64,000 nucleotides of DNA from Stegostoma tigrinum (taxonomy: Eukaryota), in NCBI RefSeq assembly GCF_030684315.1, contig NC_081365.1:18912062-18976061 (forward strand), read 5' to 3'. The stretch's first letter is position 1; every line of letters starts with the position of its first letter. Below the pieces are notes generated by a model. That model was not told the DNA's origin. It did no database searches and saw nothing but the letters and a program-made list of their open reading frames with translations. This document shows positions 5,064-58,990 of this stretch, piece after piece. The translations under genes and the position numbers were made by a program.

Positions 5064-6107
5064 CTGAAAAGGTGAAATTAAATATGAATGCAAAAAAATA
5101 CTAATACTGTATGCAAATTAATTGGTAAGATTATTTTAAAATATAGTGTTCATTGTTTAATATAATCACCATACACTGTGACACCCAAAAACAAGAGCCA
5201 ATAATGATTAAAAAATGCAAGATTAAAATAACAAAATATTTTATATGTCTGTCAATATCCGGCGCAAATCTGTTCACCCGTTTTCTAATCAGTCCTTAGT
5301 TGACTGGCTTTGCACCTCAAGGATTTCAGACTGCTTGAATGAACAATGGCTCAGAGGTAGCATTTACACTCAAGCCAGAACATTATGGGTTTCAACCACA
5401 CTGCAGACAACCCCTGGATAGCACAGGAAATAATTACAAAACCTCTGATTTACATCCAGCAAGGTACTAGCATTTCCCATCTTTATTTGCTCTTGCCAAC
5501 ATGTGACTCAAGCCATTTAACTACCAGCTGAAGAGGCCGAGGAAGACACTCAATTCAAAGGTACGCTCTGCCTACTTCATCACTGTTCTAGAATAAAGGA
5601 CAAAACACTAGGCTCTTTACATACAACTCCTTAATTACTCAACACACTATTAGCTGGCATATGCTTTAACATAACAAAAAGTCATAGCACATTATTTTTA
5701 AAAAGAAAAACTACAAAGTAATGGGATTTACAATAAAACCAGATTTATTACATGAGTTTAAATGTGAAACTGCATCTTCAACTTTAAATACCAAAGTTCT
5801 CTTCCTCCCCTTTTATAGGAACCGATTTGCTCTGCTCAGCGGATACTGAGATGAAACACTAAATGCTAACTCAAACGTCACAAAGAATAACTCATCTACT
5901 GAGACCATGAATATGCTGTAATCTAATTTAAGCAATGAAAGTGACGTATTTTATAAAATAACTATTTATACTTGTGTCCAAACATAATCTGAAACTCATC
6001 AGAATGATCATAGCTGATAAATGTATGAACAATCATTCTATTCTTAAACCCCTTTGCAAGTTGATTTGTATGCAAATGGCAACAACATACAGGATAATAT
6101 AAAAGGA

Positions 6108-6285
6108 ACAAAAACACAGTTGCTGGAAAAGCTCAGCAGGTCTGGCAGCATCTGTGAAGGAGAAAAAGAGTTAACATTTCAGGCCCGGTGACCGCACCTC
6201 AGAACTCAGACCTGCTGAGCTTTTCCGGCAACTTCGTTTTTGTTCCTGATTTGTCGTATCCTCAGTTCTTTCGGTTTTTATTTAC
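6108..6285. mobile_element. Miniature two-armed PLE (family B)
   Basis: Inverted arms, degenerate hammerhead on minus strand, TSD aatataaaagga at 6096-6107 and 6286-6297. Confidence 0.8.
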
Positions 6286-6689
6286 AATATAAAAGGAGTT
6301 GTTCTCAATTATAGGAAATGTCTGCATGCCAGATGTTTAAAATTATACCCCTCTACAGGATCACATTAGTAAGTGTGACTTTTTCAGACGTTCCTTGTGT
6401 AAATTTAAGGCTGAGATAGATCGATTCTCTTATTGGTCAAAAATCTAAGTTTACAGGCAAAGGCAGGAAAGTGAACACGAAGAATACCAGATCATCCATG
6501 ATCCTATTGAATAGTAGAGCAGACTGGAGGGGCTGAACAGCCTATTCCTAGGTTTTATGGTACATTGAGGACACTTGGTACTTTTTGAAATTAAATCCAA
6601 TATTTCTGAGTAGATTCTGAGTACTTACAAGCCAATTAGAGGTATCAATTTAAACACTAAAAGAAATTACTTAATCTAGACACACATGA

Positions 6690-9600
6690 TGTGTTGCAAT
6701 TGAAAAATATTATTTCCAACACCTGAGAGCCCAGACAAACAGGTCAAGAATGAATGCCTGCAAGGTATGTAGCTTTTGCTGAGTAAGAGAGCCGAAGGAC
6801 AAATTGTAGACACAGACACATTAGGGAGGGGAGGTTACTGGAGAATTTGATCAGAAGTCACACTCGTTAGAACAGGTCACTGGTCAGGCACAGGAGAGTA
6901 TGACTGCAAGTCAGGGGGTAAAGGGATCAATGAATGTAGAAGTGAAGAAATTATAAGAAACAGTTCTGAGATGCTTGCAATGTGCATTAACCGAAGTGTG
7001 GGTTGCAAGGTGAATGAATAAGCCAAACATACTACAATCCATTCAAGTGAGGGAGTCAATAGGAATGCAGTAGTAGTAGGGGGCAGTAGAATCAGGACAA
7101 ACAGTTCTCTGTAGCCAAGAGGAGCAATCTTGATGACTGTGTTGCCTACCCACTGCCTAGATTCAGGATTTGCACTGGAAGGGATGCAGTGGCCATCATC
7201 AGAATTGGTACAAATGACACATTAGGACTGGAGAAAAAGCTTCTGCTGACAGAGAAGAAACTAGAGGCTAAACTAAATGTGGAACATCAAGGGCAATAAT
7301 CTCTGGATAACTACCTAACTACCTGGTACAGAGTAATTAAGATTAGAGATTTACATGTTAGATCAAAGATTGTTGTGAGAACAATAAGGTTTGATTCTTG
7401 GGACACAGGCATCAGTACATTGAAAAGTGAGAGATATACTGTTCAGACAAGTTTCGCCTGAACCATGCTGGTACCAGTGTTTTGATGAGTTAGAAACTAG
7501 GGCAACGGAGAAGGTAGCAAACGAAATAGTGGGGATGAGGGATCAAGTGTGGGAATACTTTATAAATTAAAAAAAGACAAAAGAGCAAGGTAGCAATAAG
7601 GAGAGTTCTGATCAGAGCAGAGAATGACAATAATGGACACAATAGAAACTTAGGAGTACGTCAGCAGATAAGGCCAGAGACTGCAAAAACAAGAAAAATA
7701 GAGTTTAAGGTTCTGCATCTGAATATACCGAGCATCCACAACAAAACAGAAAAACTAACAGGCCAAATGGAAATAATATATATGATCTGATCATCACTGT
7801 GAAACATGGCTACAAGATTACAAAAACTGGGACCTGAATGTTTAAGGGTACATGACATTTCGGAAGTTCTTTATTTGGCCTGGCTCCGTAACACAGTTTG
7901 GGTCAAGACCGACTGCTCGAGGAGAAAGCAAAAATCAAGAACTATCTTCATGCTCAAACTTCAAAAGGAAGGCTATTATATATTCATACAAAATACTGTT
8001 ATACATGGTGATTATAACTACACTAAGCTCTAATCTTATAGTTACACAAGGTAAAGACAAAATATTATCTTCCTATGTTGATCTCCATGTGCTCTCTCAA
8101 TTTTTCTTGCTAGATTATTTTAACTCTGACCACACTTGGTTATTTATGTTCAGTGATGCGCAGTTCCATGATAGTGTCAATAGGCTGCTCCAGTCTCCTG
8201 GGGCTCTCACACAACAGTCAGGAAGCTAGGATAAGACACAAAGGCAGCTCTGGTCAATGAAGTGATAATGGGAACTGCAGATGCTGGAGAATCCAAGACA
8301 ATAAAATGTGAGGCTGGATGAACACAGCAGGCCCAGCAGCATCTCAGGAACACAAAAGCTGACGTTTCGGGCCTGGACCTCTCTGAGCCTCACATTTTAT
8401 TGTCTGGTCAATGAAGGTTGATATTAGTGCAACAGTGAGAGATAAGCTTAGTCCCAAAGATAAAGATAGGTTCTACCTAGGTAAAGGTAAGAAATTGAAG
8501 CTCGGAAGTAACTTGTAGTATTAGCTTGTGGACCCCTGAACAGCAATTACATGGTATGAAGGGCTGGACAAAGAACGGTACAGTGACAATTATGGATGCT
8601 TTAATCTACATATATATTAGATGAATATGATTTCTTGTGGGGGGATATGGGCATTGCTCACATGACAGCATTTATTGCCTAACCCTAATTACTCTCAAGT
8701 AGTTGATAGCAAGCTGCACTCTGGAACATCATTAGGCTTTTGATGTAGGGACACCCAAGGTGTTGTTGAAAAGGGAGTTCTGGTAATTTGGCCTGGTGAC
8801 AATGAAGGAACAGCAACATAATTCCAAGTCAGAATGGCATGAGAATGAGGCAAAATCTAATGCAGTGGTGTCCCCATGAATATGCTGCCCTTGACCTTAT
8901 AGGTGGTAGAAATCACAGGTTTGAAGGGTGCTGTTGAAAGAGCCTTGACAAATTACTGCAGGGCATCTCATCAATGTACATCAGTGGTAATATGAGTGAA
9001 TGTCAAAATGCTGGATGGCATGCCAAACAAGTGAACTGTCTCTTCTGTACCCTAGATGGTATCAACTCTCTGGAATGTTGTAGGAGCTGCACCCACCCAG
9101 CCAAGTGAGGCGCATTCTAACACACTTGCAATTTCTAGTTGACGGACAGGTGCTGGAAACTGAATGAGTTTAGCAAAGGTAGCCTGGAACATGAATTCAC
9201 AGAATGCATTCAGAACTGTATCTCAGAACACCACATGCTAGAACCAAACAGCAGGCTATTCCAGATTCAATTGTGCAACAAGACAGAATTATCTAATGGC
9301 TTCATAGTAAGGGCACCCCTAGGTAGTATTGGTAATAACATAATTAAATGCTGCATTTCATTTGTGTGAGAGAGCAGTGAACTAAGATGAGTGCTTTAAA
9401 GTTAAGTAGAAGCAAATATGAGCATAGGACAAGAACTGGCTAATGTAATCTGTCAATTTAGGTTAATGAAAAGGCTCAATAAAGATACAGTTACTGACAT
9501 TTAAGGTAATATTTCAACAAGTTTAATACTGATATGTTCCATTGAGGAATAAAGTTTCGGGAGAAAGCCACACTATCCATGACCCACTAAAACAGTTAAA

Positions 9601-11429: not shown

Positions 11430-11620
11430 CCAGATAATACAGCATTGAACTAGAGGAACACAGCAGGCCAGGCAGTAGCAGAGGAGCAGGACAGTTGACA
11501 TTTCAGGTCGGGACCCTGCGACAGAAATTCTTCTGCCTAGCCTGCTGTGTTCCTCCAGTTTCACACTATATTATCTCTGACTCAAGCACTGGCAGTTCTT
11601 ACAATCTCTGACTGAGTTAA
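11430..11620. mobile_element. Miniature two-armed PLE (older family C)
   Basis: Imperfect inverted arms similar to family A end; flanking tagcatcaaaa at 11419-11429 and 11621-11631. Confidence 0.75.
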
Positions 11621-11840
11621 TAGCATCAAAATGAAATATCCTAAGACAACAACTGACAATGTGGCAGAGAAAACAACTAACAAAACTAAGAAACTAGTAT
11701 TAAGAGAACATTTAAAATTAAAACAAATTAACGATACACTCAATACAAGGGAATTTCAAGGCAATGCTTATCCTAAGATAATAAAATGTGAGGCTGGATG
11801 AACACAGCAGGCCAAGCAGCATCTCAGGAGCACAAAAGCT

Positions 11841-11868
11841 GACGTTTCGGGCCTAGACCCTTCATCAG
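11841..11868 (-). ncRNA. Minimal hammerhead ribozyme motif (family A)
   Basis: Exact reverse complement of 14814-14841. Confidence 0.8.
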
Positions 11869-12558
11869 AGAGGGGGATGGGGTGAGGGTTCTGGAATAAA
11901 TAGGGACAGAGGGGGAGGCGGACCGAAGATGGAGAGAAAAGAAGATAGGTGGAGAGAGTATAGGTGGGGACGTAGGGAGGGGATAGGTCAGTCCAGGGAA
12001 GACGGACAGGTCAAGGAGGTGGGATGAGGTTAGTAGGTAGATGGGGGTGCGGCTTGGGGTGGGAGGAAGGGTTGGGTGAGAGGAAGAACAGGTTAGGGAG
12101 GCAGAGACAGGTTGGATTGGTTTTGGGATGCAGTGGGTGGAGGGGAAGAGCTGGGCTGGTTGTGTGGTGCAGTGGGGGGAGGGGACGAACTGGGCTGGTT
12201 TAGGGATGCGGTGGGGGAAGGGGAGATTTTGAAACTGGTGAAGTCCACATTGATACCATTAGGCTGCAGGGTTCCCAGGCGGAATATGAGTTGCTGTTCC
12301 TGCAACCTTCGGGTGGCATCATTGTGGCACTGCAGGAGACCCATGATGGACATGTCATCTAAAGAATGGGAGGGGGAGTGGAAATGGTTTGCGACTGGGA
12401 GGTGCAGTTGTTTGTTGCGAACTGAGCGGAGGTGTTCTGCAAAGCGGTCCCCAAGCCTCCGCTTGGTTTCCCCAATGTAGGGGAAGCCACACCGGGTACA
12501 GTGGATGCAGTATACCACAATACCCTCCCTCGACCTCTTCATCTCCAACTGCCGTTGA

Positions 12559-14589
12559 GACATTAACCGCCTCAACCACTCCACCCCTCTCACCCAATCC
12601 AACCTCTCCCCTGCAGAACGGGCAGCCGTCCACACCCTCCGCTCCAACCCCAACCTCACCATCAAACCCGCAGATAAGGGTAGCGCAGTGGTAGTATGGC
12701 GCACTGACCTCTACATCGCCGAGGCCAGACGCCAACTCTCCGACACCACCTCCTACCGCCCCCTCGATCATGACCCCACACCCGAGCACCAAACCATCAT
12801 CTCCAACACCATTCATGACCTCATCACCTCAGGGGACCTCCCACCCACAGCCTCCAACCTCATTGTTCCCCACCCGCACACGGCCCGTTTCTATCTCCTT
12901 CCCAAAATCCACAAACCTGCCTGCCCTGGTCGACCCATCGTCTCAGCCTGCTCCTGCCCCACCGAACTCATCTCCACCTATCTGGACTCCATTTTCTCCC
13001 CTTTGGTCCAGGAACCCCCTACCTACGTCCGTGACACCATCCACGCCCTCGACCTCCTCCAGGACTTCCAATTCCCTGGCCCCCAACACCTCCTCTTCAC
13101 CATGGACGTCCAGTCCCTATACACCTGCATTCCGCATGCAGATGTCCTCAAGGCCCTCCGCTTCTTCCTTTCCCGCAGACCCGACCCGTCCCCCTCCACT
13201 GACACCCTCATCCGCCTAGCCGAACTCGTCCTCACCCTCAACAACTTCTCTTTTGACTCCTCCCACTTCCTACAGACTAAGGGGGTCACCATGGGCACCC
13301 GCATGGGCCCCAGCTATGCCTGCCTCTTTGTAGGTTACGTGGAACAGTCCCTCTTCCGCACCTACACAGGCCCCAAACCCCACCTCTTCCTCCGGTATAT
13401 TGATGACTGTATCGGCGCCGCCTCTTGCTCCACAGAGGAGCTCGAACAGATCATCCACTTCACCAACACCTTCCACCCCAACCTGAAGTTCACCTGGGCC
13501 ATCTCCAGCACATCCCTCACCTTCCTGGACCTCTCAGTCTCCATCTCAGGCAACCAGCTTGTAACTGATGTCCATTTCAAGCCCACCGACTCCCACAGCT
13601 ACCTAGAATACACCTCCTCCCACCCACCCTCCTGCAAAAATTCCATCCCCTATTCCCAATTCCTCCGCCTCCGCCGCATCAGCTCCCACGATAAGACATT
13701 CCACTCCCACACATCCCAGATATCCAAGTTCTTCAAGGGCCGCAACTTTCCCCCCACAGTGATCGAGAACGCCCTTGACCACATCTCCCGTATTTCCCGC
13801 AACACATCCCTCACACACCGCCCCCGCCACAACCGCCCAAAGAGGATCCCCCTCGTTCTCACACACCATCCCACCAACCTCCGGATACAACGCATCATCC
13901 TCCGACACTTCCGCCATCTACAATCCAACCCCACCACCCAAGACATTTTTCCATCCCCACCCCTGTCTGCTTTCCGGAGAGACCACTCTCTCCGTGACTC
14001 CCTTGTTCGCTCCACACTGCCCTCCAACCCCACCACACCCGGCACCTTCCCCTGCAACCGCAGGAAATGCTACACTTGCCCCCACACCTCCTCCCTCACC
14101 CCTATCCCAGGCCCCAAGATGACATTCCACATTCAGCAGAGGTTCACCTGCACATCTGCCAATGTGGTATACTGCATCCACTGTACCCGGTGTGGCTTCC
14201 TCTACATTGGGGAAGCCAAGCGGAGGCTTGGGGACCGCTTTGCAGAACACCTCCGCTCGGTTCGCAACAAACAACTGCACCTCCCAGTCGCAAACCATTT
14301 CAACTCCCCCTCCCATTCTTTAGATGGCATGTCCATCATGGGCCTCCTGCAGTGCCACAATGATTCCACCCGAAGATTGCAGGAACAGCAACTCATATTC
14401 CGCCTGGGAACCCTGCAGCCTAATGGTATTAATGTGGACTTCACCAGTTTCAAAATCTCCCCTTCCCCCACTGCATCCCTAAACCAGCCCAGTTCGTCCC
14501 CTCCCCCCACTGCACCACACAACCAGCCCAGCTCTTCCCCTCCACCCACTGCATCCCAAAACCAGTCCAACCTGTCTCTGCCTCCCTAA
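12559..14589 (+). CDS. PLE reverse transcriptase + GIY-YIG endonuclease (open frame, 5'-truncated, no native start)
   Basis: IKPADKG, LPKIHK, GRPIVS, TMDVQSLYT, MGTRMGPSYA, RYIDD, FLD; Cys linker CNRRKCYTC; VVYCIHCTRCGFLYIGE..R..EH; stop TGA at 12556-12558 upstream. Confidence 0.93.
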   Translation, partial: DINRLNHSTPLTQSNLSPAERAAVHTLRSNPNLTIKPADKGSAVVVWRTDLYIAEARRQLSDTTSYRPLDHDPTPEHQTIISNTIHDLITSGDLPPTASNLIVPHPHTARFYLLPKIHKPACPGRPIVSACSCPTELISTYLDSIFSPLVQEPPTYVRDTIHALDLLQDFQFPGPQHLLFTMDVQSLYTCIPHADVLKALRFFLSRRPDPSPSTDTLIRLAELVLTLNNFSFDSSHFLQTKGVTMGTRMGPSYACLFVGYVEQSLFRTYTGPKPHLFLRYIDDCIGAASCSTEELEQIIHFTNTFHPNLKFTWAISSTSLTFLDLSVSISGNQLVTDVHFKPTDSHSYLEYTSSHPPSCKNSIPYSQFLRLRRISSHDKTFHSHTSQISKFFKGRNFPPTVIENALDHISRISRNTSLTHRPRHNRPKRIPLVLTHHPTNLRIQRIILRHFRHLQSNPTTQDIFPSPPLSAFRRDHSLRDSLVRSTLPSNPTTPGTFPCNRRKCYTCPHTSSLTPIPGPKMTFHIQQRFTCTSANVVYCIHCTRCGFLYIGEAKRRLGDRFAEHLRSVRNKQLHLPVANHFNSPSHSLDGMSIMGLLQCHNDSTRRLQEQQLIFRLGTLQPNGINVDFTSFKISPSPTASLNQPSSSPPPTAPHNQPSSSPPPTASQNQSNLSLPP

Positions 14590-14813
14590 CCTGTTCTTCC
14601 TCTCACCCATCCCTTCCTCCCACCCCAAGCCGCACCCCCATCTACCTACTAACCTCATCCCACCTCCTTGACCTGTCCGTCTTCCCTGGACTGACCTATC
14701 CCCTCCCTACGTCCCCACCTATACTCTCTCCACCTATCTTCTTTTCTCTCCATCTTCAGTCCGCCTCCCCCTCTCTCCCTATTTATTCCAGAACCCTCAC
14801 CCCATCCCCGTCT

Positions 14814-14841
14814 CTGATGAAGGGTCTAGGCCCGAAACGTC
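14814..14841 (+). ncRNA. Minimal hammerhead ribozyme motif in PLE 3' end
   Basis: CUGAUGA-A-GGGU(CUAG)GCCC-GAAA-C-GUC; loopless palindromic ACGU stem III as in dimer-dependent minimal hammerheads of PLEs. Confidence 0.8.
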
Positions 14842-15814
14842 AGCTTTTGTGCTCCTGAGATGCTGCTTGGCCTGCTGTGTTCATCCAGCCTCACATTTTA
14901 TTATCTTGGATTCTCCAGCATCTGCAGTTCCCATTATCTCTAATGCTTATCATAAGATGGAAACTGACACCCAGATGAACTTCAGGTCCTGACATTGCAA
15001 CCACATGATTCTCATTTACAATAGCTTAATTAACCAAGAGGCACCTTGGCATTCAATTAGAGGCACCAAGTTCTCCCAGAAGCTGGGAGCTGACTGCCTG
15101 AACAGGTGACAAACGCAGATTAAAGCTTTTATCAAGGCTTCCTTTTGGAGGAGGCAGCTCATCAGAAGGCCAGGAGCTGAAAAGCAAAATAAAATCGATC
15201 CTAACGAATTTAAGGTAATGTGCTGGGTCTGGCACCAGCTGTGAAAAAAGAAAGTAAACGTCACAGCAACAAATTTAATGGTATCAAAAACTGAGACAAA
15301 ACAGTATTCTCATGCTCTTTTATCTCTCCTTTCACTTGCTAAAGTAGTCATTAGAAGCTTGAGCTCGAATCAAGAGTAATTATTTGGCTTTCATGTTTGA
15401 TCTGCCATTCAAAATGGTTATAGAATATATGATTTGTGACTTTATTTCCACATTCCTGCCTACCTACAATAACTTTAGACTCCCTTAATGATGGGAAATG
15501 TTTTTTACAACAGGGGCCCTCGAGTGTCTCACTTTGTGTAAGTGTTAATAATAAAAGCTGTCAAGGAATTCATCAGGAAATTTCTATATGTAGTTGCATA
15601 TGCACAGACACACTTTGCTAGTACAGCATTGTTTAAATGATCAGATTACGGAATTTTAGCAATTTCTTCCCTTGCCCAGGCTCTCGAAGTATCAATGAAT
15701 TTACATTTCTGTCCCAAGAAAATATCTGCAAAGTTCCAAAGAAATTCAGCAAGTGTTTTCTGTACTTTTTAAATTTAATTAAATTGGGAAACAAAAGAAA
15801 ACTTTGTCACTTAC

Positions 15815-20866: not shown

Positions 20867-23418
20867 TGTGACTGGTTTGTTAGTTCACAGACATTTCATT
20901 ATCCTGCTGGGTAACACCATCAGTGCAGCCTCTGATGAAGTGCTGTTGTATTTCCCACTTGGTATTTAAACTCTGGGGTATGCTGGATTTGATTACCTCA
21001 TTTCCGGTTTTCCTTCGTAGCGGTGTATATGTAGGGTCCAGTTCTATGTGTTTGTTGATGTCCTTCTTAGTGGAGAACCGGGCCTCTAGGAATTCCTGTG
21101 CCTGTCTCCATTTGGCGTCCTAGGATCCTGGTGTTGTCCCAATCAAACTGGTGGTTCTCCTTATCCATGTGGATGGAGGTGAGTGAGTATTAGTCATTTT
21201 TTTGTTGCTAGTTGGTGTTCACGTACTCCTGCGGTTAAATTTTCTTCCTGTCTGTTCAATGTAATGTTTGATGCAGTCCCTGCATGGAATTTTGTACATT
21301 ACTTTGGTTCTGTCCATACTGGAAAAGGGGTCTTTGGTTTGAGTTTGCAGTTGGCGCTGGGCTGACATAAGTTTGTGTGCCACTCTGATGCCCAATGGTC
21401 GTAGGAGTCTTGTGGTCAGTGTGGATATACGGTAGGGTCATGAGTGTGTTAGGCCATGCAGTATCTTCCTGTTGCTGTTCATGAGATGGGTATCGACGGA
21501 CCCTATTGTTGGGGTATCTGTTGTCCTTGAATACTTTGCGGGGGTACTCTTCTTTTTGGTGTTCTTTCGGGTTGCTACAGTGCTTTTTGTTGCTTTTTTA
21601 AATTGTGTTTTGACGCAACTTAGTTTGTGGGTGTTGGGGTGGTTACTGTTGAAATTCGGGACACATCCATGTGCGTGGCTTTTCTGTGCACCTTTGTTAG
21701 AAATTCTCAAATGGCCCTGCATTCTACCATGACATCCAGGAACACTGCTGCTCTTTCGTTCTTCTTTGGTGAATTTGATAATTTGATGCCAGTGAGAGTG
21801 TTATTTATTAGTTGGTGTGTCTCCTCTAGTTTGGTCCATTTGATAAGGACAAAATGGTCATCATCGTATCAGATCCATGGTTCAGGCTGGATCTACAGAA
21901 GGGCCATGTTTTCGAGTCTCTGCATCACCACTTCTGCTATTATTCCAGAAACAGATGATCCCATGGGTATCTCATTGATCTGTTCACAGATTTAGCCATG
22001 AAAAGTAAAGTGGGTCATAAGGCATAGGTCCAGTAGTTTCAGCTTGTCGTCTGCGGAAATGGTGTCATTCAGGTCTCCTTCTTTTAGTAGTGTTGCTGTG
22101 TTTCTTTTGCCAGTGGTGTGTCAATCGACGTGATAGGAGCAGTGATGTCAAATGACACCATGGTTTCATCAGTGTCTATCCTTAGGTCCTTGAAGGATTT
22201 GAGGGATTCCTGGGCTGAGTGCATTGAGTGGGGTGACTTGCTGACGAGGTGCTTTAGTCTTTGTTGCAATTCCTTGGCTAACCTGTGTGTTGGTTCCCTG
22301 CTAGGGAGACTATGGATCTGAGGGGTACTTCCAGTGTACTTTTGGGAGCCGCAGAATCGGGGGAGTCTGTTCCTGTTGCTTTCATTTTTGGGTAGTCCAT
22401 TTTGATGATCTGTCCGATCTGTTCAAGTCTCTTAAGAATGTTAATTACTTTATGACCCAGTTATAGGATCAGGTCCATTTGCACTTGCCAGAATGTGTTC
22501 GTGCCTCCTGGTAATGTCTGTGCTGTAGTGAGGTAATCCGTATGTTTAGTATTACCGTCATGTGTCCTTTGTCTGCTGGTTGTAAATGATGTTTTTGTCT
22601 TATTTCAGTCCTTCTAGGGCCTTCCTTTCAGATAGTGTTGTGAGTGTCAAGTTCTTTCCTTCTGATCAGTATCCATGCCGCTGTCTGTCTTGTGGCTTGT
22701 TGTGTTTCCTCATTGATGCTGTTGGTCTTCAGTATGGCTTCTAGTGCGGCTAGGAATTCTGCCTTGTTAGCATTTCTATGGTTGCAGTCGAGTCCATGTA
22801 TTAGAACAGCTTTGTCTGTGTGTGTTAGTTTCCTGTCTGAAAGCTTTCTTATCCAAGTGTCCGACCTATGGTTGTCCTTTTGATGAGATAGTTTAGCTAA
22901 TTTTTCTTGTAGGATCTGTCTTTTCTTCGTTCTTGTTATCTATTGACGGACATTAATGACTCATTCTAGGGCTACTGTCCAGCCTGGGTTGGTATGGTTT
23001 AGGATTAATGTTTTTTGATGTGTACCTTCTCGGTCATATCTAAGGAGCTGGCTGTGTGCGTCATTGATCACTACCTCCACCATTCTGCAGCAATTATGTT
23101 CTGCCATCCTATGTGCATGTGGGTTGGTGATGGGGGAGTGATTTGTATCTCACATTGTGTGGTAATACATGGTTCCTGAGGCATCCATGTAGGAAGTAGA
23201 GTTCCTTGCACGTAGTGGTCTGTTGTTTGATGTAGTTTTCCCATTTCTGGGCCAATTTGAGTGTACTTCGTCTGTAGATTCCTAAGGTTCTTGAGTAGAA
23301 TTGTAGCTTGAGTTATGGATGCTGTAGTTAGTTCGCAAATATTTCATTATCCTGCTGAGTAACTTCATCTAACCACAGCATCCACAACCCGAGCTACACA
23401 TTTACTCATGAACCTTAG
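20867..23418 (-). mobile_element. Degenerate full-length Poseidon/Penelope-type PLE (family D)
   Basis: Remnants MVSFDITAPITSID, PMGSSVSGIIAE, NSNHPNTHK, TLPYI, HQFDWDNTRIL; direct repeat 20879-20921 / 23327-23369 containing a hammerhead-like motif; inverted repeat 23282-23331 / 23369-23418; TSD agaagctaattc at 20855-20866 and 23419-23430. Confidence 0.88.
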
Positions 23419-24779: not shown

Positions 24780-24891
24780 AGATAATGGGAACTGCAGATG
24801 CTGGAGAATCCAAGATAACCAAGTGTGAAGCTGGATGAACACAGCAGGCCAAGCAGCATCTCAGGAGCTCAAAACGTCAGCTTTTGTGCTC
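24780..24891. mobile_element. Miniature two-armed PLE (family A)
   Basis: TSD tttat(a/g)caacagcag at 24765-24779 and 24892-24906. Confidence 0.85.
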
Positions 24892-27505: not shown

Positions 27506-28048
27506 CTAGAGTGTTGCTGGTGCTGCACACAACCAGATCGATGGGTCAGTAATTGGTCTCATGGGACTTGTCTTGTTTTGCGTGAGAAATAGATGCCTGG
27601 TATACAATCATAGAATCTCCAGCGCATGAAAGCGGGCCATTCAGCCCATTGAGTCCACAGACCTAGGCCCCACCCTATCCTTGTAATCCTGTACATCCCA
27701 TGGCTAATCCACCTAGACTGCACATTTTTTAGGCTAGGTCAGAAGTCACATGACACCTGGCTATAGTCCAATAGGTTTATTTGAAATCACAAGCTTTCCC
27801 AGCACTGCCCCTTCATTAGGTGATGTGAAGAGAGTACCCAGGCACAGAACTGATTATGAGAAAGATCAAATGGTGTGAGTGGAGATCACTGCAGGTAATC
27901 AAGAGTGTTAGACAGTGACAGTCAAGTGTCCACAGCTGAATAACAAGTGAAGGGATGACCTATAGTCCGATTAATTGACACAGAGAGATAACTACAAAAA
28001 AATTGAAAATAAGGTGTTGCTGGAGACAAATCAAATGACTGAAATAAC

Positions 28049-28172
28049 AGATAGTAAGAACTGCCGATGCTGGAGTCTGAGCTAACAGCTTGGAGCTGGA
28101 TGGACACAGCAGGGCAGGCAGCTTTCCTGCTCCACTAATGCTGCCTGGCCTGCTGTGTTCCTCCGGCTCTAC
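28049..28172. mobile_element. Miniature two-armed PLE (family C) nested in family E
   Basis: TSD actgaaataac at 28038-28048 and 28173-28183. Confidence 0.8.
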
Positions 28173-29202
28173 ACTGAAATAACGTGCTAGGTATAAGAGA
28201 TGCATGCCGAGGGTCTAACCAAAGTAACAAGTAATCCAGAACCGTACAAACTATTAAGGTAGAGGGATCGCAACAACTTATCAAGGTGATGGTGTCAAGA
28301 CAGGACTGTCAGTAAGATTTTGTAGAACAGCAAGGTGGGGTCACATGTAATGCAATGTGAACCCAAGATCACAGCTGAGGCTGTCTTCATGGGTACAGAG
28401 CTTGGCTATCAGTTTCTGCTCAATGATTCTGCATTGTTATGTATCTTGAAGGCCGCGTTGGAGGATGCTTACCAAAAGATTGAAGGCTGAATGCCTCAAC
28501 TGGGAGAAAACAATCCTGTCTGGCGAATGTTGTGCAGTGTCCATTCATCCATCCTTGCCTGCAGCTGCTACCTAATAAAGAGCAACTGGTGAATCACATG
28601 AGTATCTGCCGTGTACATGGTGAGTAGTGTTCCCACATGATGGTAGTATCCATGTCGATGATCAAAAATGTCTTGCAGAGGTTGCCGTAGGGTTATTGTG
28701 TGGTGTTGTGGTTGATGTTATCCTGAAGGTTAGGTAATTTGCTGCGAATAATGGCCTTTGGTGGTTGTTTGAAGGCAAGAAGTGGAGACGTAGGGATGAT
28801 ATTAGCAAGATGTTCATCATCATCGACATGTTGAAGGCTGCAAAGAACATGGCATAGTTTCTCTGTTCAGCGAAGTACCAGACAACGAAAGGTACTCTAT
28901 CAGTTGTATCCTGTGTCTGTCTTCAACGGAGGTTGTTGCGGCACATCAGAACTGGCAACTGCTCAGTTGAACATCATATCCCATTTTTGAGGGTGTCTTT
29001 CAACATCTTTAGGTGTCCGTCACATGCTTCCTCGTCTGACCAGATCCTGTGTACAGAGTTTGTCCATAAGGGATGGCTTCTTTAACAAGTTTAGGGTGGA
29101 AGCTAGAGAGGTGTAGCATTGTGAGGTTATCTGTGGGCTTGGGGTAGAATGAGGTACTAAGGCGTCCATCCTTGTTGGACAAGCATGTGTCCAAGAATGA
29201 GA

Positions 29203-29340
29203 CCTCCCCCTCTCTCCCTATTTATTTCAGAACCTCTCCCCATCCCCCTCTCTGATGTAGGGTCTAGGCCTGAAACCTCAGCTTTTGTACTCCCGAGATG
29301 CTGCCTGGCCTGCTGTGTTCATCCAGCTGCATACTTTGTT
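29203..29340 (+). mobile_element. Family A PLE 3' fragment nested in family E
   Basis: Homologous to 14764-14900; mutated hammerhead. Confidence 0.8.
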
Positions 29341-30560
29341 AACCAGTGGTCTGTAGTAAGCCTGATTGTGGATAAAACTTGGTAATATTGTTGCATAGTC
29401 ATTTCATTAATTTCTAACTGTGAGTCCAGACAAAGAAAATGTCAATGTACCTAGGGTATTGCAATGGTTAGAGGTCCTGTGCAGCAAGTCATCTTGCTTG
29501 AATTTGCACATGAAAACGTTGGCATATAGGAGTGCAAATGTGGTCCCCGTGATGTTCCGTCTGTCTCGATGAACAGCTGGTTGTCAAAGGTGAAGATGTT
29601 GTGGTCAAGGATAAAGCAGATGAGTATTAGGATGGAGTCTGCAAATTGGCAGTTGTTCATGTTGAGTCCTGAGGCTGGTGCAGCAATGCTGGTTTAAAGT
29701 GCCGAAATGTCCATTGCGACGAGGAATGTCCCTGGTTCAACTGGTCCACGGGTGCCGAGTTTCTGTAACAAGTCTGTAGTGTTGCGATAGAAGCTGATGT
29801 TTCCCTGCATAATGGGTTTCAAGATCCCCCTGACACAGCCAGAGATGTTCTCACACAGGGTCCTGTTGCCTGATACAATGGGGCATTCAGGTATGTTGGC
29901 TTTGTCTATCTTTGGAAGGCAGAAGTCTCCTACGTAAGAAATACACAGGTAAGCATCCTCCAAGGCAGCCTTCCAAACACACAAGACAGAATCGCCAAGC
30001 AGAAACTGATAGCCTAGTTGCATACCAATGAATACAGCCTCAACCTGTGATCTTGGGTTCACATCATACTACATGTGATACTACCACCACACTGTTCTGT
30101 AAAATCTTCCTTACTGAACTGTCTTGACACCATCACTTTGATAACTTGGTATGATCCTTCTACCTTAATTAGTTTGCACAATTTTGTATTTCTTGTTACT
30201 TTGGTTAAACCCTCTGCACCAACTTATTTTTCATTTTTTGTAATTATTTCTATGCATCAATTAATCAGACTGTAGGTCATCCCTTCACTGTTATTCAATT
30301 GTTGACTTTACTTACACCATCGACACACTTGATGCCCTGCAGAGATCTATTATTCTGCCTGTCAACACACCACTCGTGCCATCTGTGTGCTCTTTCGATC
30401 TCTGATTATCAATTGTGTGCCTGGATATTCTCTTCACTTCTCCTGATGAAGGGGTGGCACTTTGAAAGCTTGTGATTTCAAAGAAACCTGTTGGACAAAA
30501 GCCTGATGTCATGGGACCATTGACGTTGTCCACCACAGTTCAACGCTGGCACCTCCTCAG

Positions 30561-32273: not shown

Positions 32274-32853
32274 AGAGATAATGGGAACTGCAGATGCTGG
32301 AGAATTCCAAGATAATAAAATGTGAGGCTGGATGAACACAGCAGGCCAAGCAGCATCTCAGGAGCACAAAAGCTGACGTTTCGGGCCTAGACCCTTCATC
32401 AGAGAGGGGGATGGGGAGAGGGAACTGGAATAAATAGGGAGAGAGGGGGAGGCGGACCGAAGATGGAGAGTAAAGAAGATAGGTGGAGAGAGTGTAGGTG
32501 GGGAGGTAGGGAGGGGATAGGTCGGTCCAGGGAAGACGGACAGGTCAAGGAGGTGGGATGAGGTTAGTAGGTAGCTGGGGGTGCGGCTTGGGGTGGGAGG
32601 AAGGGATGGGTGAGAGGAAGAACCGGTTAGGGAGGCAGAGACCGGTTGGACTGGTTTTGGGATGCAGTGGGTGGGGGGGGGGGAAGAGCTGGGCTGGTTG
32701 TGTGGTGCAGTGGGGGGGAGGGGACGAACTGGGCTGGTTTAGGGATGCAGTAGGGGAAGGGGAGATTTTGAAACTGGTGAAGTCCACATTGATACCATAT
32801 GGCTGCAGGGTTCCCAGGCGGAATACGAGTTGCTGTTCCTGCAACCTTCGGGC
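32274..32853 (-). mobile_element. Single-arm 5'-truncated family A PLE
   Basis: Highly similar to 14372-14941; TSD catttggaggtatc at 32260-32273 and 32854-32867. Confidence 0.93.
32375..32402 (-). ncRNA. Minimal hammerhead ribozyme motif (family A)
   Basis: Intact core identical to 14814-14841. Confidence 0.8.
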
Positions 32854-37846: not shown

Positions 37847-38075
37847 TCAGAGATAATGGGAACTGCAGATGCTGGAGATTCCAAGATAATAAGATGTGAG
37901 GCTGGATGAACACAGCAGGCCAAGCAGCATCTCAGGAGCACAAAAGCTGACGTTTCGGGCCTAGACCCTTCATCAGAGAGGGTGATGAAGGGTCTAGGCC
38001 CGAAACGTCAGCTTTTGTGCTCCTGAGATGCTGCTTGGCCTGCTGTGTTCATCCAGCCTCACATCTTATTATCTT
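37847..38075. mobile_element. Miniature palindromic PLE (family A)
   Basis: ~93-bp perfect inverted arms around a 7-nt loop plus tail; TSD gaaatc(c/g)ccaagta at 37833-37846 and 38076-38089. Confidence 0.93.
37949..37976 (-). ncRNA. Minimal hammerhead ribozyme motif (family A)
   Basis: Intact core identical to 14814-14841. Confidence 0.8.
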
Positions 38076-44713: not shown

Positions 44714-44868
44714 TAAAATAAAACAAAGAACTGCGGCTGCTAGAAATCCAAAACTAAAACTGAAATTCATGGAGAACAGTTCTGATAGACCCAAAATGTT
44801 AACTTTGCTTTCTCCCCACAGATGCTGCAAGACCTGCTGAGTTGCTCCAGCAATTTCTGTTCTTGTTC
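44714..44868. mobile_element. Miniature two-armed PLE (family B, old)
   Basis: Tail arm plus inverted arm; degenerate TSD cacggtcagtct / catagtcagcct. Confidence 0.6.
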
Positions 44869-45800
44869 CATAGTCAGCCTGCCCAGACCCAGGGTGTGGG
44901 AGCCAGGCGAGGGTACCAGTCAGTTCCTTTAAAGTGATAAGAACATTGAGCATGCCAGCATTCCCTCACGCCAACCTGCATTAAGTCTTCGCACAGGGTT
45001 CTGTGAAAATCCTCACTGAATAGATCAAGAGAGAACATAGTTTGTAATAGGCCCTGATGCCCTCTATATCTAAGACAAGGAACTCAATGCAGTCAATAGC
45101 ACAAGCAGTTGCTGACAGCCCTCTCCGTCTTCTTGCCTGGAGTAGAAGGGAAAGCCATGATCCAGGTCCCCAAGGATCCAGACCCATGATCTCAAACATA
45201 CCACAGGAACCAATGAGTTGCACATACCTCAGGATGCCCTTTCTTTCTTTATATAAACCTTCGCACCCCCCCCCCCCCACCACACCCCCAAAAGGGCAGG
45301 TCCAAATCAGGCTGACTGAAAAGAGATTCCAGGTCAAGCACCACCGCCTCCAACATCTCAATTCTCGATTTCCACCACTGTCAACACATCACATATTCGA
45401 GAAAAGGCCAGGCATGAATCTTACTCACATCCCATCAGTCTCTAGGAGGGGAAGCCGTCAAACCTTAATTCTTAAGCTGGTCCAAAGCCAATGGAACAAT
45501 TTTCAGGACCACTCATTCTCCAGCAGCAGATTGTTACAAGTTCCAGCACTTGGACCTCAGCTGGAATGGGTGAGCTCTGCCCACACTAGATGGTGGTCCA
45601 TTTTTGGCACTTGCTGCACGGATGCCACCAGGGGTATGAAGGAGACGCATACCCATGTAACATGCAGGTAGTTGATTCTCAAAGCTCCGACCTGAGGCCT
45701 CGGAAAAGTAAAGAAGTGATGGAGTCAAGGTGGAGATTCCACCAGATCAAAGGGCTTGACAAAGTCCCTCAGTCTCTTCAACACTGAACTGGCATCAACA

Positions 45801-47105
45801 GGTAATGAAATGTGAGGCTGGATGAACACAGCAGGCCCAGCAGCATCTCAGGAGCACAAAAGCTGACATTTCGGGCCTGGGCCCTTCATCAGAGAGGGGG
45901 ATGGGGTGAGGGTTCTGGAATAAGTGGGGAGAGAGGGGGAGGTGGACCGAAGATGGAGAGAAAAGAAGATAGGTGGAGAGGACAGTATTGGTGGGGAGGT
46001 AGGGAGGGGATAGGTCAGTCCAGGGAAGACGGACAGGTCAAGGAGGTGGGATGAGGTTAGTAGGTAGGAGATGGAGGTGCGGCTTGGGGTGGGAGGAAGG
46101 GATGGGTGAGAGGAAGAACCGGTTAGGGAGGCAGAGATAGGTTGGACTGGTTTTGGGATGCAGTGGGTGGAGGGGAAGAGCTGGGCTGGTTGTGTGGTGC
46201 AGTGGGGGGAGGGGACGAACTGGGCCGGTTTTGGGATGCGGTGGGGGAAGGGGAGATTTTGAAGCTGGTGAAGTCCACATTGATACCATTGGGCTGCAGG
46301 ATTCCCAAGCGGAATATGAGTTGCTGTTATTGCAACCTTCGGGTGGCATCATTGTGGCACTGCAGGAGGCCCTTGATGGACGTGTCATCTAAAGAATGGG
46401 AGGGGGAGTGGAAATGGTTTGCGACTGGGAGGTGCAGTTGTTTATTGCGTTTCCATTTCCACTCCCCCTCCCATTCCTTAGATGACGTGTCCATCATGGG
46501 CCTCCTGCAATGCCACAATGATGCCACCCGAAGGTCGCAGGAACAGCAACTCATATTCCGCTTGGGAACCCTGCAGCCCAATGGTATCAATGTGGACTTC
46601 ACCAGCTTCAAAATCTCCCCTTCCCCCACCACATCCCAAAACCAGCCCAGTTCGTCCCCTCCCCCCACTGCACCACACAACCAGCCCAGCTCTTCCCCTC
46701 CACCCACTGCATCCCAAAACCAGTCCAACCTGTCTCTGCCTCCCCAACCGGTTCTTCCTCTCACCCATCCCTTCCTCCCACCCCAAGCCGCACCTCCATC
46801 TCCTACCTACTAACCTAATCCCACCTCCTTGACCTGTCCGTCTTCCCTGGACTGACCTATCCCCTCCCTACCTCCCCACCTATACTCTCCTCTCCGCCTA
46901 TCTTCTTTTCTCTCCATCTTCGGTCCACCTCCCCCTTTCTCCCTATTTATTCCAGAACCTTCACCCCATCCCCCTCTCTGATGAGGGGTCTAGGCCCGAA
47001 ACATCAGCTTTTGTGCTCCTGAAATGCTGCTGGGCCTGCTGTGTTCGTCCAGCCTCACATTCCATTATCTTGGATTCTCCAGAATCTGCAGTTCCCATTA
47101 TCACA
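45801..47105. mobile_element. 1.3-kb fold-back family A PLE
   Basis: Minus arm 45803-46450, plus arm 46451-47104 with tail; TSD gcatcaaca at 45792-45800 and 47106-47114. Confidence 0.93.
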
Positions 47106-51491: not shown

Positions 51492-51661
51492 AGATAATGG
51501 GAACTGCAGATGCTGCAGAATCCGAGATAACGAAGTGTGGAGCTGGAGCCTAAGCATGGAGCTTTTTCTGATGAAGAGTCCAGGCTGAAACGTCAGCTTT
51601 TGTGCTCCTAAGATGTTGCTTGGTCTGCTGTGTTCACCCAGGTCCACACTTTGTTTTCTCG
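51492..51661. mobile_element. Miniature two-armed PLE (family A-like) with filler at arm junction
   Basis: TSD gaactgg(g/a)cagg at 51480-51491 and 51662-51673. Confidence 0.85.
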
Positions 51662-55086: not shown

Positions 55087-55116
55087 CTCTTTCTCCTCCA
55101 GCTCCTCCACCAGTAT
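55087..55116 (-). CDS. BRWD1: BRWD1 coding exon 3 (ILVEELEEKE)
   Basis: gcag| acceptor, GAG|GTGCGT donor, 30 nt, in frame. Confidence 0.93.
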
Positions 55117-55231
55117 CTGCCAGACAGGAAAACAACAAGAACAAGTTTAATCTCCGACATAATCACCGAAACCGTTTATATTTTACTGAAGGAACTTTTA
55201 TTATTTTTATGGTCTCGAATACACCACTCAC

Positions 55232-55290
55232 CTCCGCGGACTTTCGGCAAGGACCCGCCGAGAGAAAGCGAGCGATTAGGAAGTAGAGCT
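55232..55290 (-). CDS. BRWD1: BRWD1 coding exon 2 ([20 protein letters not shown])
   Basis: cttag| acceptor, GAG|GTGAGT donor, 59 nt; conserved ELYFLIAR motif of BRWD1/PHIP/BRWD3. Confidence 0.96.
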
Positions 55291-55398
55291 CTAAGAGGGG
55301 AACGAAAAAGAATACAAACCTCGTTTTTTTTAAACGTTGCTTTTTTGTTTGTAAAATAAAACAGTTGAGGCCGTCTTTTCTTCCAATGTTGTTCTTAC

Positions 55399-55447: not shown

Positions 55448-55589
55448 TTTTTTCCTTAATTTTAATTATATACTTAGATTTCAATGGTGGATTTTTAATA
55501 CATGATGTTCTTGTTTATAATTTATATATGTATATTTTCTTTAGAATAAATTTCTTTTGTATGTGTGTGTGCTTTTTTTTGAAAAAGGA

Positions 55590-56943: not shown

Positions 56944-57146
56944 GAAATAATGAACTGCAGATACTGGAGAATCCAAGATAACAAAGTATGAAGCTGGATG
57001 AACACAGCAGGCCAAGTAGCATCTCAGGAGCACAAAAGCTGACATTTCAGAGCTCTGATGAAGGGTCTAGGCCCGAAACGTCAGCTTTTGTGCTCCTGAA
57101 ATGCTGCTTGGCCTGCTGTGTTCATCCAGCTTCACACTTTGTTATC
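56944..57146. mobile_element. Miniature two-armed PLE (family A)
   Basis: TSD tataattaagttca at 56930-56943 and 57147-57160. Confidence 0.92.
57055..57082 (+). ncRNA. Minimal hammerhead ribozyme motif (family A)
   Basis: Intact core identical to 14814-14841. Confidence 0.8.
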
Positions 57147-57862
57147 TATAATTAAGTTCATCACGGTTCTGCTAACGTCACCTGGGCTCAGGCAAAGCCG
57201 ATGAAGGAGTACCCTGAAGACGCAGCTGGGACGAGATAGTGATTTCGGGGCAAGAAAGCCACGCCAGGGTCAGACCAGAAGCCCCTACCAAAGAAGGCCG
57301 CCACACCGGGTCACTGTAAACCACTGTCGCTGGGCTGGAGAAGTCTCCTTTCCCCCAAATGACACTTCTCTTGGCGCTGCTGCCAATCGGTCATCCATCC
57401 TTATAGCTGATGCTTCTGCTCCTTCATGTGCATGGGCCAAGCTGTGGTCCTGGTGCCTCAGTCCATACTGCAAGTCTTGGTCCAGGGCCTTCTCTTTGCT
57501 TGAAGGGAGACCCCAGGCTGGGTTGGAGCTGTATCTGGCTTGTCCTCATATTGCTGCCATCAGTGGCCTCCTCCTCCCAAATGCCTTTCACCAGGCTTTA
57601 AAGAAAAGAAACCAAATAAAGGCAATTCAATCCGTTGAGCCTGCTCCTCCATTTGATACAATCATAACTAATCTCATCTCGTCTTCAGCCCCATTTTCCT
57701 GCTCATTGCCTTTAACCCATTAGTAATTAAAAATGTCAAATCTCTTCCTCAGACTTATTTAATATCCTGGTCTCTGCTACACTCTGAAATAGTGAATTCA
57801 ACAGATTCAAGATTTTTTGGGAGAAGTCATTCTTCCTGGTGGTGAAGAAGGTCTGTGGGATA

Positions 57863-58242
57863 GGAGCAAATTACTGCAGATGGTGGAGATCACAGCTGGT
57901 CAGGCAACATTATGAAATAAAAGCAAGCTAATGTTTTGAATCTAGATGACTTCAGCATTAAAGTGAAGTGTGGAAGGAGCAGCATTTGTGCAATAGTGGG
58001 AAGGGTGGTTTGGAGTGCTGGGGGAGAAAGGATGTTGATAGTTCAGATCAAGTCTTCTCACATTCCAATCACTTAATCTGAACTGTCAAAATCTTTTCTT
58101 GCCCAGCACTACAAACCTCCCCTCCCACAATTGAATAAATGCTGCTCATTCAGTTCCCTTTAACTCTGATGAAGAGTCATCTAAACTCAAAATGTTAGCT
58201 TGCTTTCTTTCCACGGGTGCTGCCTGACCTGTGGTGATCTGC
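57863..58242. mobile_element. Old two-armed PLE (family B-like)
   Basis: Imperfect inverted arms; ctgatgaagagtcatctaaactcaaaatgttagc hammerhead-like remnant near 58166. Confidence 0.65.
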
Positions 58243-58990
58243 AAGGTATTCAGGATGTTTGCCTTCATTAGCCAAACCATAGAACATAGGAAAAGGGGAG
58301 TTCTTCTACAACTTGGAACACTAGTTCTGATCCCTACCCTATCAGAAGAGTGTGAGTGCACTGGAGAGGGTACAGAGGAGATTCTTCGGAATGTTGCCTG
58401 GATGAAAAGTCTCAGTTATGAGGAGACACCATATCGCTGGGTTTGTTTACTTTGAAGCAAAGGATGACAAGGGAGTATTTGATTGAGGCATACAAAATGA
58501 TGAGAGGCATAGGGAAAGTAGATAGTGATAATCTTTTCCCCATGACATGTGTTTAAGGTCAGAGGACATATAATGTGAGGAGCAAGTGGTTTAGAGGAAA
58601 GCTGAGAAAAAAATCTTTCACCCAATGAGTGCTAGAAATATGGAACGTGTTGCCTGAGAGAGCCATGGAGGCAGACACTGTCATAACATGTAAGAAGCAT
58701 CTGGATGAATACTTAAAATGCCAGGCCATATTAGGTTATGGACCATGTGCAAGTAAGTGGGATTGATATAGTTTGGTGAAATGTGAGGCTGGATGAACAC
58801 AGCAGGCCCAGCAGCATCTCAGGAGCACATGTGCTCCTGAGATGCTGCTTGGCCTGCTGTGTTCATCCAGCCTCAGATTTTATCTTGGAATTCTCCAGCA
58901 TCTGCAGTTCCCATTATCTTTGATATAGTTTGGTGTTTGTTAGTTGGCATAGACGTGGTAGGCCGATGGGCCTGTTTCTAAGCTCATGAT
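58243..58990 (+). mobile_element. CR1 LINE 3' fragment
   Basis: Degenerate C-terminal ORF2 and tail. Confidence 0.7.
58779..58919. mobile_element. Miniature loopless palindromic PLE (family A)
   Basis: Centre gagcaca|tgtgctc at 58829/58830; TSD ttgatatagtttggtg at 58763-58778 and 58920-58935. Confidence 0.93.

What the first reader, a model, noticed from the sequence alone, without database searches (positions are those of the whole stretch)
6096..58935. Stereotyped two-armed PLE insertions with a ~30-40 nt offset: candidate offset twin-priming integration system
Seen: at least 13 insertions (6108, 8263, 11430, 11773, 20867, 24780, 27731, 28049, 37847, 45801, 51492, 56944, 58779) consist of two arms with RNA 3' ends facing outward, nearly all between 9-16 bp TSDs. 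One arm reaches the terminal tail; the other typically starts 30-40 nt inside it (34 nt at 11773, ~33 at 8263 and 37847, ~37 at 45801 and 6108, ~40 at 58779; exceptions 24780 and 20867 with larger offsets). The arms usually overlap in sequence, unlike L1 twin-priming inversions. Established: Penelope elements show inverted pseudo-LTRs and a short tail. Inference: both 3'-OH ends of a staggered GIY-YIG cut prime reverse transcription at two sites a roughly fixed distance apart, and the two cDNAs are joined at arbitrary lengths, giving a continuum from ~110-bp MITE-like palindromes to kb-size fold-backs across several families.
Basis: partly seen in the sequence, partly recalled or inferred. Interest (0 to 1): 0.85.

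Follow-up and report, generated by a model that had tools for sequence, protein, structure and literature searches.

The report
Two-armed Penelope retrotransposon insertions in shark
These are copies of known Penelope-type jumping genes, inserted as two back-to-back arms of which only one carries a 30-40 base end piece; the layout is already described, but here it points to both cut DNA ends copying the same RNA from two fixed starting points.

Summary
12 of the 13 listed insertions have 9-17 bp target duplications above chance, and 7 of 8 two-armed family-A insertions have a 30-41 nt offset. The layout is a published hallmark of Penelope-like elements (PLEs): inverted 5'-truncated arm, 30-40 bp tail often on one end only, 8-10 bp TSD (PMC8557442, PMC3846280). 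In vitro, a Poseidon PLE cuts and extends both strands and starts at two RNA sites bounding the tail (PMC11167929). So this is no new system.

The window adds three points. (1) All 13 resolvable pairs other than 24780 are one tailed plus one tail-less arm. (2) The arms of one insertion share variants, so they came from one template. (3) In 7 of 13 the tail-less arm reaches further 5' than a fold-back could copy. Together these favour paired priming on one RNA (about 0.6), a model I did not find stated in print.

The claimed size continuum is not supported: 10 inserts are 112-229 bp and 4 exceed 1.3 kb. Mini arms stop at or before the 5' edge of the hammerhead, possibly the RNA's 5' end.

The parts
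12559..14589 (+). Family A ORF, 5'-truncated (about 260 N-terminal profile positions missing): RT, CX2-5CxxC linker, C-terminal GIY-YIG endonuclease with CCHH motif (Neptune-like PLE)
   Evidence: closest named relatives 87-91% in Rhincodon and Stegostoma
14814..14841 (+). Minimal hammerhead-like core in the family A pLTR; presumed cleavage after 14841 (inferred from the consensus core, not assayed)
   Evidence: motif scan; min-HHRs in PLE pLTRs described in PMC4209133; no Rfam hammerhead hit
14780..14786 (+). TATA-like TATTTAT, 34 nt upstream of the hammerhead core; candidate promoter element (inference)
14862..14929 (+). Predicted interrupted RNA stem-loop; the tail-less start site (14898-14910) lies in or beside its loop, the tailed start site (14939-14943) just 3' of it
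   Evidence: weak: z not significant, RNAalifold did not recover it
14910..14941 (+). Family A tail (sequence between the two start sites)
11773..14941 (.). Family A two-armed insertion: tail-less minus arm 11773-12519, tailed plus arm 12520-14941; TSD 11763-11772/14942-14951 (10 bp, or 17 bp with 1 mismatch)
6108..6285 (.). Family C mini: tail-less left arm, tailed right arm; 12-bp TSD
8263..8402 (.). Family A mini: tailed left arm, 16-20 nt tail-less right arm; 14-bp TSD
11430..11620 (.). Family B mini: tail-less left arm, tailed right arm; 11-bp TSD
20867..23418 (.). Family F, decayed full-length Poseidon-like PLE on the minus strand (pLTR-ORF-pLTR, 23369 to 20867, tail-less) plus a 50-nt inverted tailed arm 23369-23418; the tail is the start of the ORF; 12-bp TSD
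24780..24891 (.). Family A exception: tailed left arm stopping at ref 14851, second arm ref 14835-14854 (offset 85-88, arms overlap by only about 4 nt); 15-bp TSD, 1 mismatch
27730..30555 (.). Family E old two-armed insertion in a SINE-like repeat: long tail-less left arm (carries nested 28049 and 29203), tailed right arm 29948-30555; decayed TSD of about 9 bp
28049..28172 (.). Family B mini: tailed left arm, tail-less right arm, 4-nt microhomology at the inner junction; 11-bp TSD
37847..38075 (.). Family A mini: tailed left arm, tail-less right arm; both share a private variant at ref 14897; 14-bp TSD, 1 mismatch
44714..44872 (.).
45801..47105 (.). Family A, arms 643 and 647 nt; the tail-less arm reaches 32 nt further 5'; 9-bp TSD
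51492..51661 (.). Family A mini: short tailed left arm, longer tail-less right arm; 12-bp TSD, 1 mismatch
56944..57146 (.). Family A mini: 12-nt perfect palindrome centred at ref 14812; tailed arm lacks hammerhead stem II (ref 14818-14833); 14-bp TSD
58779..58919 (.). Family A mini: perfect palindrome, both arms end at ref 14848; arms differ at the subfamily marker 14868; 16-bp TSD
32274..32853 (-). Family A single-armed, tailed, 5'-truncated insertion; 14-bp TSD
62791..62973 (-). Family A single-armed, tailed insertion, 11-bp TSD, nested in a probable family C two-armed insertion (62726-63221, 9-bp TSD with 1 mismatch, not above the null)

Best explanation
These are ordinary endonuclease-bearing PLE insertions (Neptune-like families A, B, C, E; Poseidon-like family F) made by paired target-primed reverse transcription. 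(1) The GIY-YIG nuclease cuts both strands 9-16 bp apart (TSD shown here; two-strand cutting shown in vitro for PAc). (2) The RNA has two start sites 30-40 nt apart, downstream of the hammerhead (shown for PAc; matching bimodal ends here). (3) Inferred: one complex, probably a dimer on one RNA, gives one target 3'-OH to each site, helped by 1-4 nt of primer-template pairing. (4) Inferred: both enzymes copy the same stretch, the trailing one displacing the leading cDNA, so the arms overlap. (5) Inferred: the two cDNA ends are joined bluntly, by short microhomology or with a few extra bases, giving a head-to-head insert with the tail on one side. Single-armed tailed copies are the case in which the second priming failed or was lost.
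For: Pairing: 13 of 14 two-armed insertions are tailed + tail-less, none tailed + tailed or tail-less + tail-less; P = 1.2e-4 for independent choice at p = 0.5, the most favourable case for independence. A profile scan gave 31 arm ends, 15 stopping at model positions 81-84 (mostly the training rows), 15 at 40-62, 1 at 67. One template: over 548 columns shared by 5 long arms, 12 columns unite the two 45801 arms (plus 2 three-state columns), 2 unite the two 11773 arms, 1 is discordant (at a CpG); each 45801 arm also has 12 private columns, so the arms are not being homogenised. Private variants are shared within 8263 and within 37847. Two copying events: the tail-less arm reaches further 5' in 9 of 13, of which 7 (6108, 11430, 27731, 28049, 44711, 45801, 51492) cannot be a copy of the tailed cDNA without a later deletion. 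24780 has L1-like geometry, the tailed cDNA stopping about 4 nt past the second start. Outer-junction microhomology: 24 nt over 17 family-A junctions against a null mean of 11.6, p = 0.006. PAc cleaves and extends both strands, starts at two sites bounding the tail and is modelled as a dimer (PMC11167929).
Against: Nothing here shows that one RNA molecule, rather than two RNAs from one locus, was used. The 58779 arms differ at a marker site (14868) that elsewhere tracks a subfamily; one site, so recurrent mutation is possible. The prediction that the trailing (tailed) arm cannot outrun the leading one fails in 3 of 13 (8263, 11773, 37847), and 9 of 13 is not significant (p = 0.27). Perfect palindrome centres at 56944 and 58779 are what PMC3846280 reads as self-priming. 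PMC11167929 saw no strand difference in start site and describes the start site as not homologous to the cut DNA; it did not test pairing per molecule. 57866-58262 could not be resolved and might break the pairing rule. The sample is one 64-kb window, boundaries were curated by hand, and no related shark DNA could be fetched (0 hits in a bacterial and archaeal collection).
Confidence: 0.6

Rival explanations
1. Fold-back (self-priming) plus nuclease resolution: one cDNA is primed at the tailed site, snaps back, copies itself, and the copy is cut or stops at the tail border; later deletions erode the palindrome centre.
For: Also explains one-sided tails and shared variants. Perfect palindrome centres at 56944 and 58779, nested arms at 8263, 11773, 37847. 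20867 is compatible because its long arm holds a 5' copy of the tail. Proposed in part in PMC3846280 (self-priming) and PMC8557442 (EN-mediated resolution).
Against: Needs a later one-sided deletion in 7 of 13 insertions. The 58779 arms differ at a subfamily marker. PAc primes directly at both sites from cut target in vitro.
Confidence: 0.22
2. Two RNAs, one per subunit, each primed at one target end, with the site choice fixed by an asymmetric complex.
For: Needs no strand displacement; explains overlap and independent inner ends; fits the marker difference in 58779.
Against: Arms share variants in 45801, 11773, 8263 and 37847, so both RNAs would have to come from one source locus; gives no simple reason why tailed + tailed pairs are absent.
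Confidence: 0.12
3. The minis are MITE-like clonal derivatives, or the palindromes are assembly or repair artefacts.
For: Minis are short hairpins of 112-229 bp.
Against: 6 of 6 family-A minis have different inner junctions; ends are asymmetric; TSDs vary from 9 to 16 bp; arms carry independent mutations; several families of two clades show the same layout.
Confidence: 0.04

Closest known systems
PAc (Poseidon of Anolis carolinensis), PMC11167929
   Same: RT plus GIY-YIG, hammerhead in the pLTR, two RT start sites bounding a 30-40 nt tail, both strands cut and extended. Family F has the same layout, with the tail at the ORF start.
   Different: The paper does not state that the two sites are used one per strand within one insertion. 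Families A, B, C, E are Neptune-like. Here the start sites are U-rich rather than AC-rich and show slight primer-template microhomology.
Penelope of Drosophila virilis and Pen2a_Av of Adineta vaga (PMC2377424, PMC3846280)
   Same: Inverted pLTR plus pLTR-ORF-pLTR; 34-37 bp repeat or 31-bp tail on one arm; 8-10 bp TSD; palindromes at the inverted junction. 20867 matches the Pen2a_Av layout.
   Different: Those authors favour self-priming, possibly on an antisense template; the D. virilis promoter is TATA-less. TSDs here run longer (up to 16 bp) and most inserts are ORF-free minis.
Neptune clade PLEs (PMC8557442)
   Same: C-terminal GIY-YIG with CCHH and an upstream CX2-5CxxC linker; inverted 5'-truncated arm; one-sided tail.
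   Different: No tree against named Neptune references was built; the word shark does not occur in that paper.
LINE-1 twin priming
   Same: Two target 3'-OH ends prime on one RNA and give an inverted insert between TSDs; 24780 has this geometry.
   Different: In L1 the second primer anneals at variable internal microhomology and the segments barely overlap; here the second start is fixed 30-40 nt inside the first and the arms usually duplicate the same sequence.

Membership tests
EN+ Penelope-like elements | Single ORF with RT and C-terminal GIY-YIG endonuclease | tested here: met
   RVT_1 E 5e-06 and GIY-YIG E 0.0028, both below Pfam cut-offs in the window protein; a full-length relative passes both cut-offs (P0020); profile match E 2e-296
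EN+ Penelope-like elements | CCHH motif with two cysteines between GIY and YIG | tested here: met
   VVYCIHCTRCGFLYIG at residue 535 and downstream histidines; definition from PMC8557442
EN+ Penelope-like elements | pLTR tandem or inverted structure with a 30-40 bp tail and TSD | tested here: met
EN+ Penelope-like elements | Minimal hammerhead motif in the pLTR | tested here: met
   Core motif with stem II found by pattern in families A, D, E and by eye in B, C, F; Rfam gave no hammerhead hit; cleavage not assayed
EN+ Penelope-like elements | RT phylogeny sister to telomerase RT | not tested
   No named reference set at hand; PDB sequence search gave 0 hits
Neptune clade (family A) | CX2-5CxxC linker before a C-terminal EN | tested here: met
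   CNRRKCYTC at residue 498; linker plus EN pattern in 29 of 48 full-length relatives
Neptune clade (family A) | Placement in the Neptune group rather than Nematis by RT tree | not tested
   No tree built
Penelope/Poseidon clade (family F) | No CX2-5CxxC linker; ORF start inside the pLTR and tail | tested here: inconclusive
   No linker seen before the decayed EN motif; the fragment 23112-23312 matches profile positions 16-67, the N-terminus; the copy is heavily broken and no tree was built
MITE (non-autonomous DNA transposon) | Clonal copies with symmetric terminal inverted repeats and fixed TSD length | tested here: not met
   6 distinct junctions in 6 minis; asymmetric ends; TSD 9-16 bp
L1-type twin priming | Variable internal second start and non-overlapping segments (recalled definition) | tested here: not met
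   Second start fixed in 7 of 8 family-A insertions; only 24780 fits

The most novel reading that the evidence does not exclude
PLE integration is an obligately paired reaction: a dimer holds one RNA and loads the two target 3'-OH ends onto two fixed sites of a stem-loop, so one RNA is copied twice by strand displacement. Because the same site pair also lies about 100-130 nt from the 5' end of the element's own mRNA, initiation there and run-off at the transcription start mass-produces 110-230 bp palindromic minis, while initiation in the downstream pLTR gives the kb-size copies. This would explain tail, inversion, palindrome centres and the bimodal sizes in one model, across Neptune and Poseidon clades.
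Probability: 0.35. Interest if true: 0.62.

Novelty: new member of a known kind. Interest (0 to 1): 0.36.

Why it matters
How PLEs form their inverted, one-tailed insertions is named as open in PMC8557442 and PMC11167929. A genome with 11 family-A insertions in 64 kb is a large natural record of reaction products. The pairing, shared-variant and nesting counts used here can be scaled genome-wide and tested in the existing PAc assay, separating twin priming from fold-back. It also warns annotators that short hairpin repeats in shark genomes can be PLE products rather than MITEs or microRNA precursors (Rfam gave only sub-threshold miRNA-like hits).

Tried and rejected
Related loci: a pattern scan of genome contigs found 0 matches; that collection is bacterial and archaeal, and no shark DNA, metagenome or viral contigs were available, so genome-wide counts and true empty sites stayed unchecked. 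Empty-site proxies inside the window: of 16 insertions tested, 3 (6108, 27731, 58779) gave junction-spanning hits to another repeat copy; the hits for 28049 and 32272 were to their own locus and say nothing. Rfam: 17 sub-threshold hits, no hammerhead. PDB sequence search: 0 hits. RNA stem around the start sites: single folds had z from -1.29 to +1.27 for 7 regions; the named structure was 89.6% paired with 3 of 16 pairs changed on both sides, but it was derived from one member and RNAalifold returned a different 4-bp helix, so it stays a lead. TSD length against offset: rho 0.52, p 0.23, n = 7 with 24780 left out. Direction of arm overhang: not significant. The first microhomology test (26 nt over 18 junctions) was partly circular and was redone without the circular base and without the tailed 37847 junction. 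mis-measured 20867 and 27731. 57866-58262 was left out of all pair counts as unresolved, and 62726-63221 as only probable. No structure or complex prediction was run: the window protein lacks the N-terminal region that forms one of the two modelled PAc dimer contacts. The 156-bp inverted repeat beside 24780 was considered as part of that insertion and rejected (outside its TSDs, no PLE similarity).

Full report
What is there. Self-BLAST shows a dispersed repeat family (A) whose longest copy holds an ORF at 12559-14589. The protein has an RT match, a CX2-5CxxC linker and a GIY-YIG domain with the CCHH motif. Its best named relatives are uncharacterised shark proteins (Stegostoma 91%, Rhincodon 87%, Chiloscyllium 75%), so the host is probably a carpet shark (inference). 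It aligns to profile positions 271-901 of 903, so the copy is 5'-truncated. By the motif definitions in PMC8557442 (passages) it is Neptune-like. Families B, C and D are more distant ends of the same kind, E is an older Neptune-like copy (27730-30555), and F (20867-23418) is a decayed full-length Poseidon-like copy. A hammerhead-like core lies 70-130 nt upstream of the element ends.

Checking the observation. All 13 listed sites are head-to-head pairs with RNA 3' ends outward. 12 of 13 have TSDs scoring >=9, against 1 of 400 random pairs scoring >=8. The 13th, 27731, had a wrong boundary in that call and is supported by an empty-site proxy. Family-A offsets are 35, 32, 88, 35, 36, 30, 37 and 41 nt; 7 of 8 lie in the published 30-41 range, P about 3e-8 under a uniform second start. 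Families B and C give 41-42 and 33-42; F gives 32-45 and E about 23-31. I add 44714-44872 as a 14th case. A profile of tailed ends found 31 arm ends in families A-D with a bimodal stop, and every neighbouring minus/plus pair that could be resolved was tailed plus tail-less. The tailed arm is on the left in 7 and on the right in 7 of the 14. Two single-armed copies with TSDs (32272, 62787) are both tailed; three single arms lack a TSD above the null (29203, 54087, 53840). Sizes are bimodal, ten at 112-229 bp and four above 1.3 kb, so the continuum is not seen.

What is already known. PMC8557442 (passages) describes an inverted 5'-truncated copy and a 30-40 bp tail often present at only one end, and ascribes it to EN-mediated resolution. 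PMC3846280 (passages and Discussion) describes inverted pLTRs, a 31-bp tail on one of them, 8-10 bp TSDs and junction palindromes, read as self-priming. PMC2377424 (passages) describes the 34-37 bp repeat and a TATA-less internal promoter. [quoted passage not shown] Its supplementary PDFs gave only labels and letters; figure S2, which maps genomic ends, was not visible and could already show pairing. PMC4209133 (passages) reports minimal hammerheads in fish Xena, Poseidon and Neptune PLEs, and that the D. virilis intron ends at the 5' end of hammerhead helix I. The preprint 10.64898/2026.07.22.740005 (passages; supplements closed) has no occurrence of tail, palindrome or initiation. Six literature searches found no paper stating a one-site-per-strand twin-priming model for PLEs; the search for Penelope with twin priming and inverted returned 2 papers on other subjects, seen as listings only. 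The library lacks most subscription papers, including older PLE reviews, so absence from print is not established. L1 twin priming is recalled, not read.

What the window adds. First, pairing: 13 of 14 two-armed insertions are mixed pairs and the 14th (24780) is tailed plus an internal start; independent site choice gives at most 1.2e-4. Second, one template: among 548 columns covered by five long arms, 12 unite the 45801 arms, 2 unite the 11773 arms and 1 is discordant at a CpG, while each 45801 arm has 12 private columns and the 11773 arms 3 and 4; arms within 8263 and within 37847 share variants seen in no other aligned copy. Third, nesting: the tail-less arm reaches further 5' in 9 of 13, the tailed arm in 3, and 1 is equal. 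The direction is not significant (p 0.27), but 7 cases cannot be fold-back copies without a later deletion. Fourth, outer junctions carry 24 nt of primer-template identity over 17 junctions against a conservative null of 11.6 (p 0.006). Against the one-RNA reading: the 58779 arms differ at 14868, where the rarer allele otherwise travels with a second marker in 8263 and 45801, and two palindrome centres fit self-priming as well as common run-off.

The minis. Of 23 short arms, 7 end within -7 to +1 of the hammerhead core (scan p 0.03). None of the 20 arms of the ten minis passes -7; the two short arms that do are single-armed copies. The full-length F arm also ends there (+2 in its 5' pLTR). Family A has TATTTAT 34 nt upstream of the core, and families D, E and F have AT-rich boxes at similar distances (by eye). 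In F the tail is the start of the ORF, so the start-site pair also exists near the 5' end of the mRNA. I infer that minis are run-off copies started at that 5'-proximal pair. Alternatives are a strong stop at the folded hammerhead or a splice boundary. Arms ending 5' of the presumed cleavage site (14841) show that the template was often uncleaved, as in PAc. A conserved stem-loop around the start sites is possible but weakly supported.

Verdict. A real and well-observed pattern, but it is the known PLE insertion signature, and its two start sites were demonstrated in 2024. The paired twin-priming reading is the best fit (0.6), ahead of fold-back with resolution (0.22) and a two-RNA variant (0.12). 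It is a useful, testable synthesis rather than a new system. Interest 0.36.

Noticed in passing
window 24928-25083 and 26010-26165: A 156-bp inverted repeat, 99% identical, around 926 bp of unique DNA, 37 bp from the 24780 insertion; no other copy in the window, no clear TSD, no PLE similarity. Possibly an inversion with duplicated breakpoints or a DNA transposon.
   Followed up: partly
window 57866-58262: Old two-armed PLE of family D with arms 73% alike and a hammerhead core at 58166; ends and TSD could not be resolved.
   Followed up: partly
window 62726-63221: Probable family C two-armed insertion (tail-less left, tailed right) with the family A copy 62791-62973 nested inside it; PLEs also nest in the 27731 element (28049, 29203), suggesting PLE-in-PLE insertion is common.
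   Followed up: partly
window 11573-11612 and 14898-14941: The two start sites look like short direct repeats (an ATCTCTGACT-like motif twice, about 33 nt apart, in family B; TTATCT twice in family A), which may be the recognised signal.
   Followed up: no
window 57035-57070: The tailed arm of 56944 lacks exactly the hammerhead stem II hairpin between two GA dinucleotides, as if the polymerase skipped it or a later slip removed it.
   Followed up: no
window 45801-47105: The two arms are nearly equal in length (643 and 647 nt) with a 36-nt offset at the start and 32-nt at the end, as if two enzymes moved in step and stopped together; a single case.
   Followed up: no
window 14817-14858: An ATG inside the hammerhead core opens a 13-codon frame ending in TGA; in PAc the main ORF starts at the equivalent place, so family A may use an intron or a later start. 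A Stegostoma gene model (P0002) reads through this pLTR.
   Followed up: no
window 14458-14569: A 39-bp tandem repeat (2.9 copies) spans the end of the family A ORF and encodes a Pro/Ser-rich C-terminal extension.
   Followed up: no
window 54997-55359: An open frame on the minus strand that may include a host exon; not examined.
   Followed up: no
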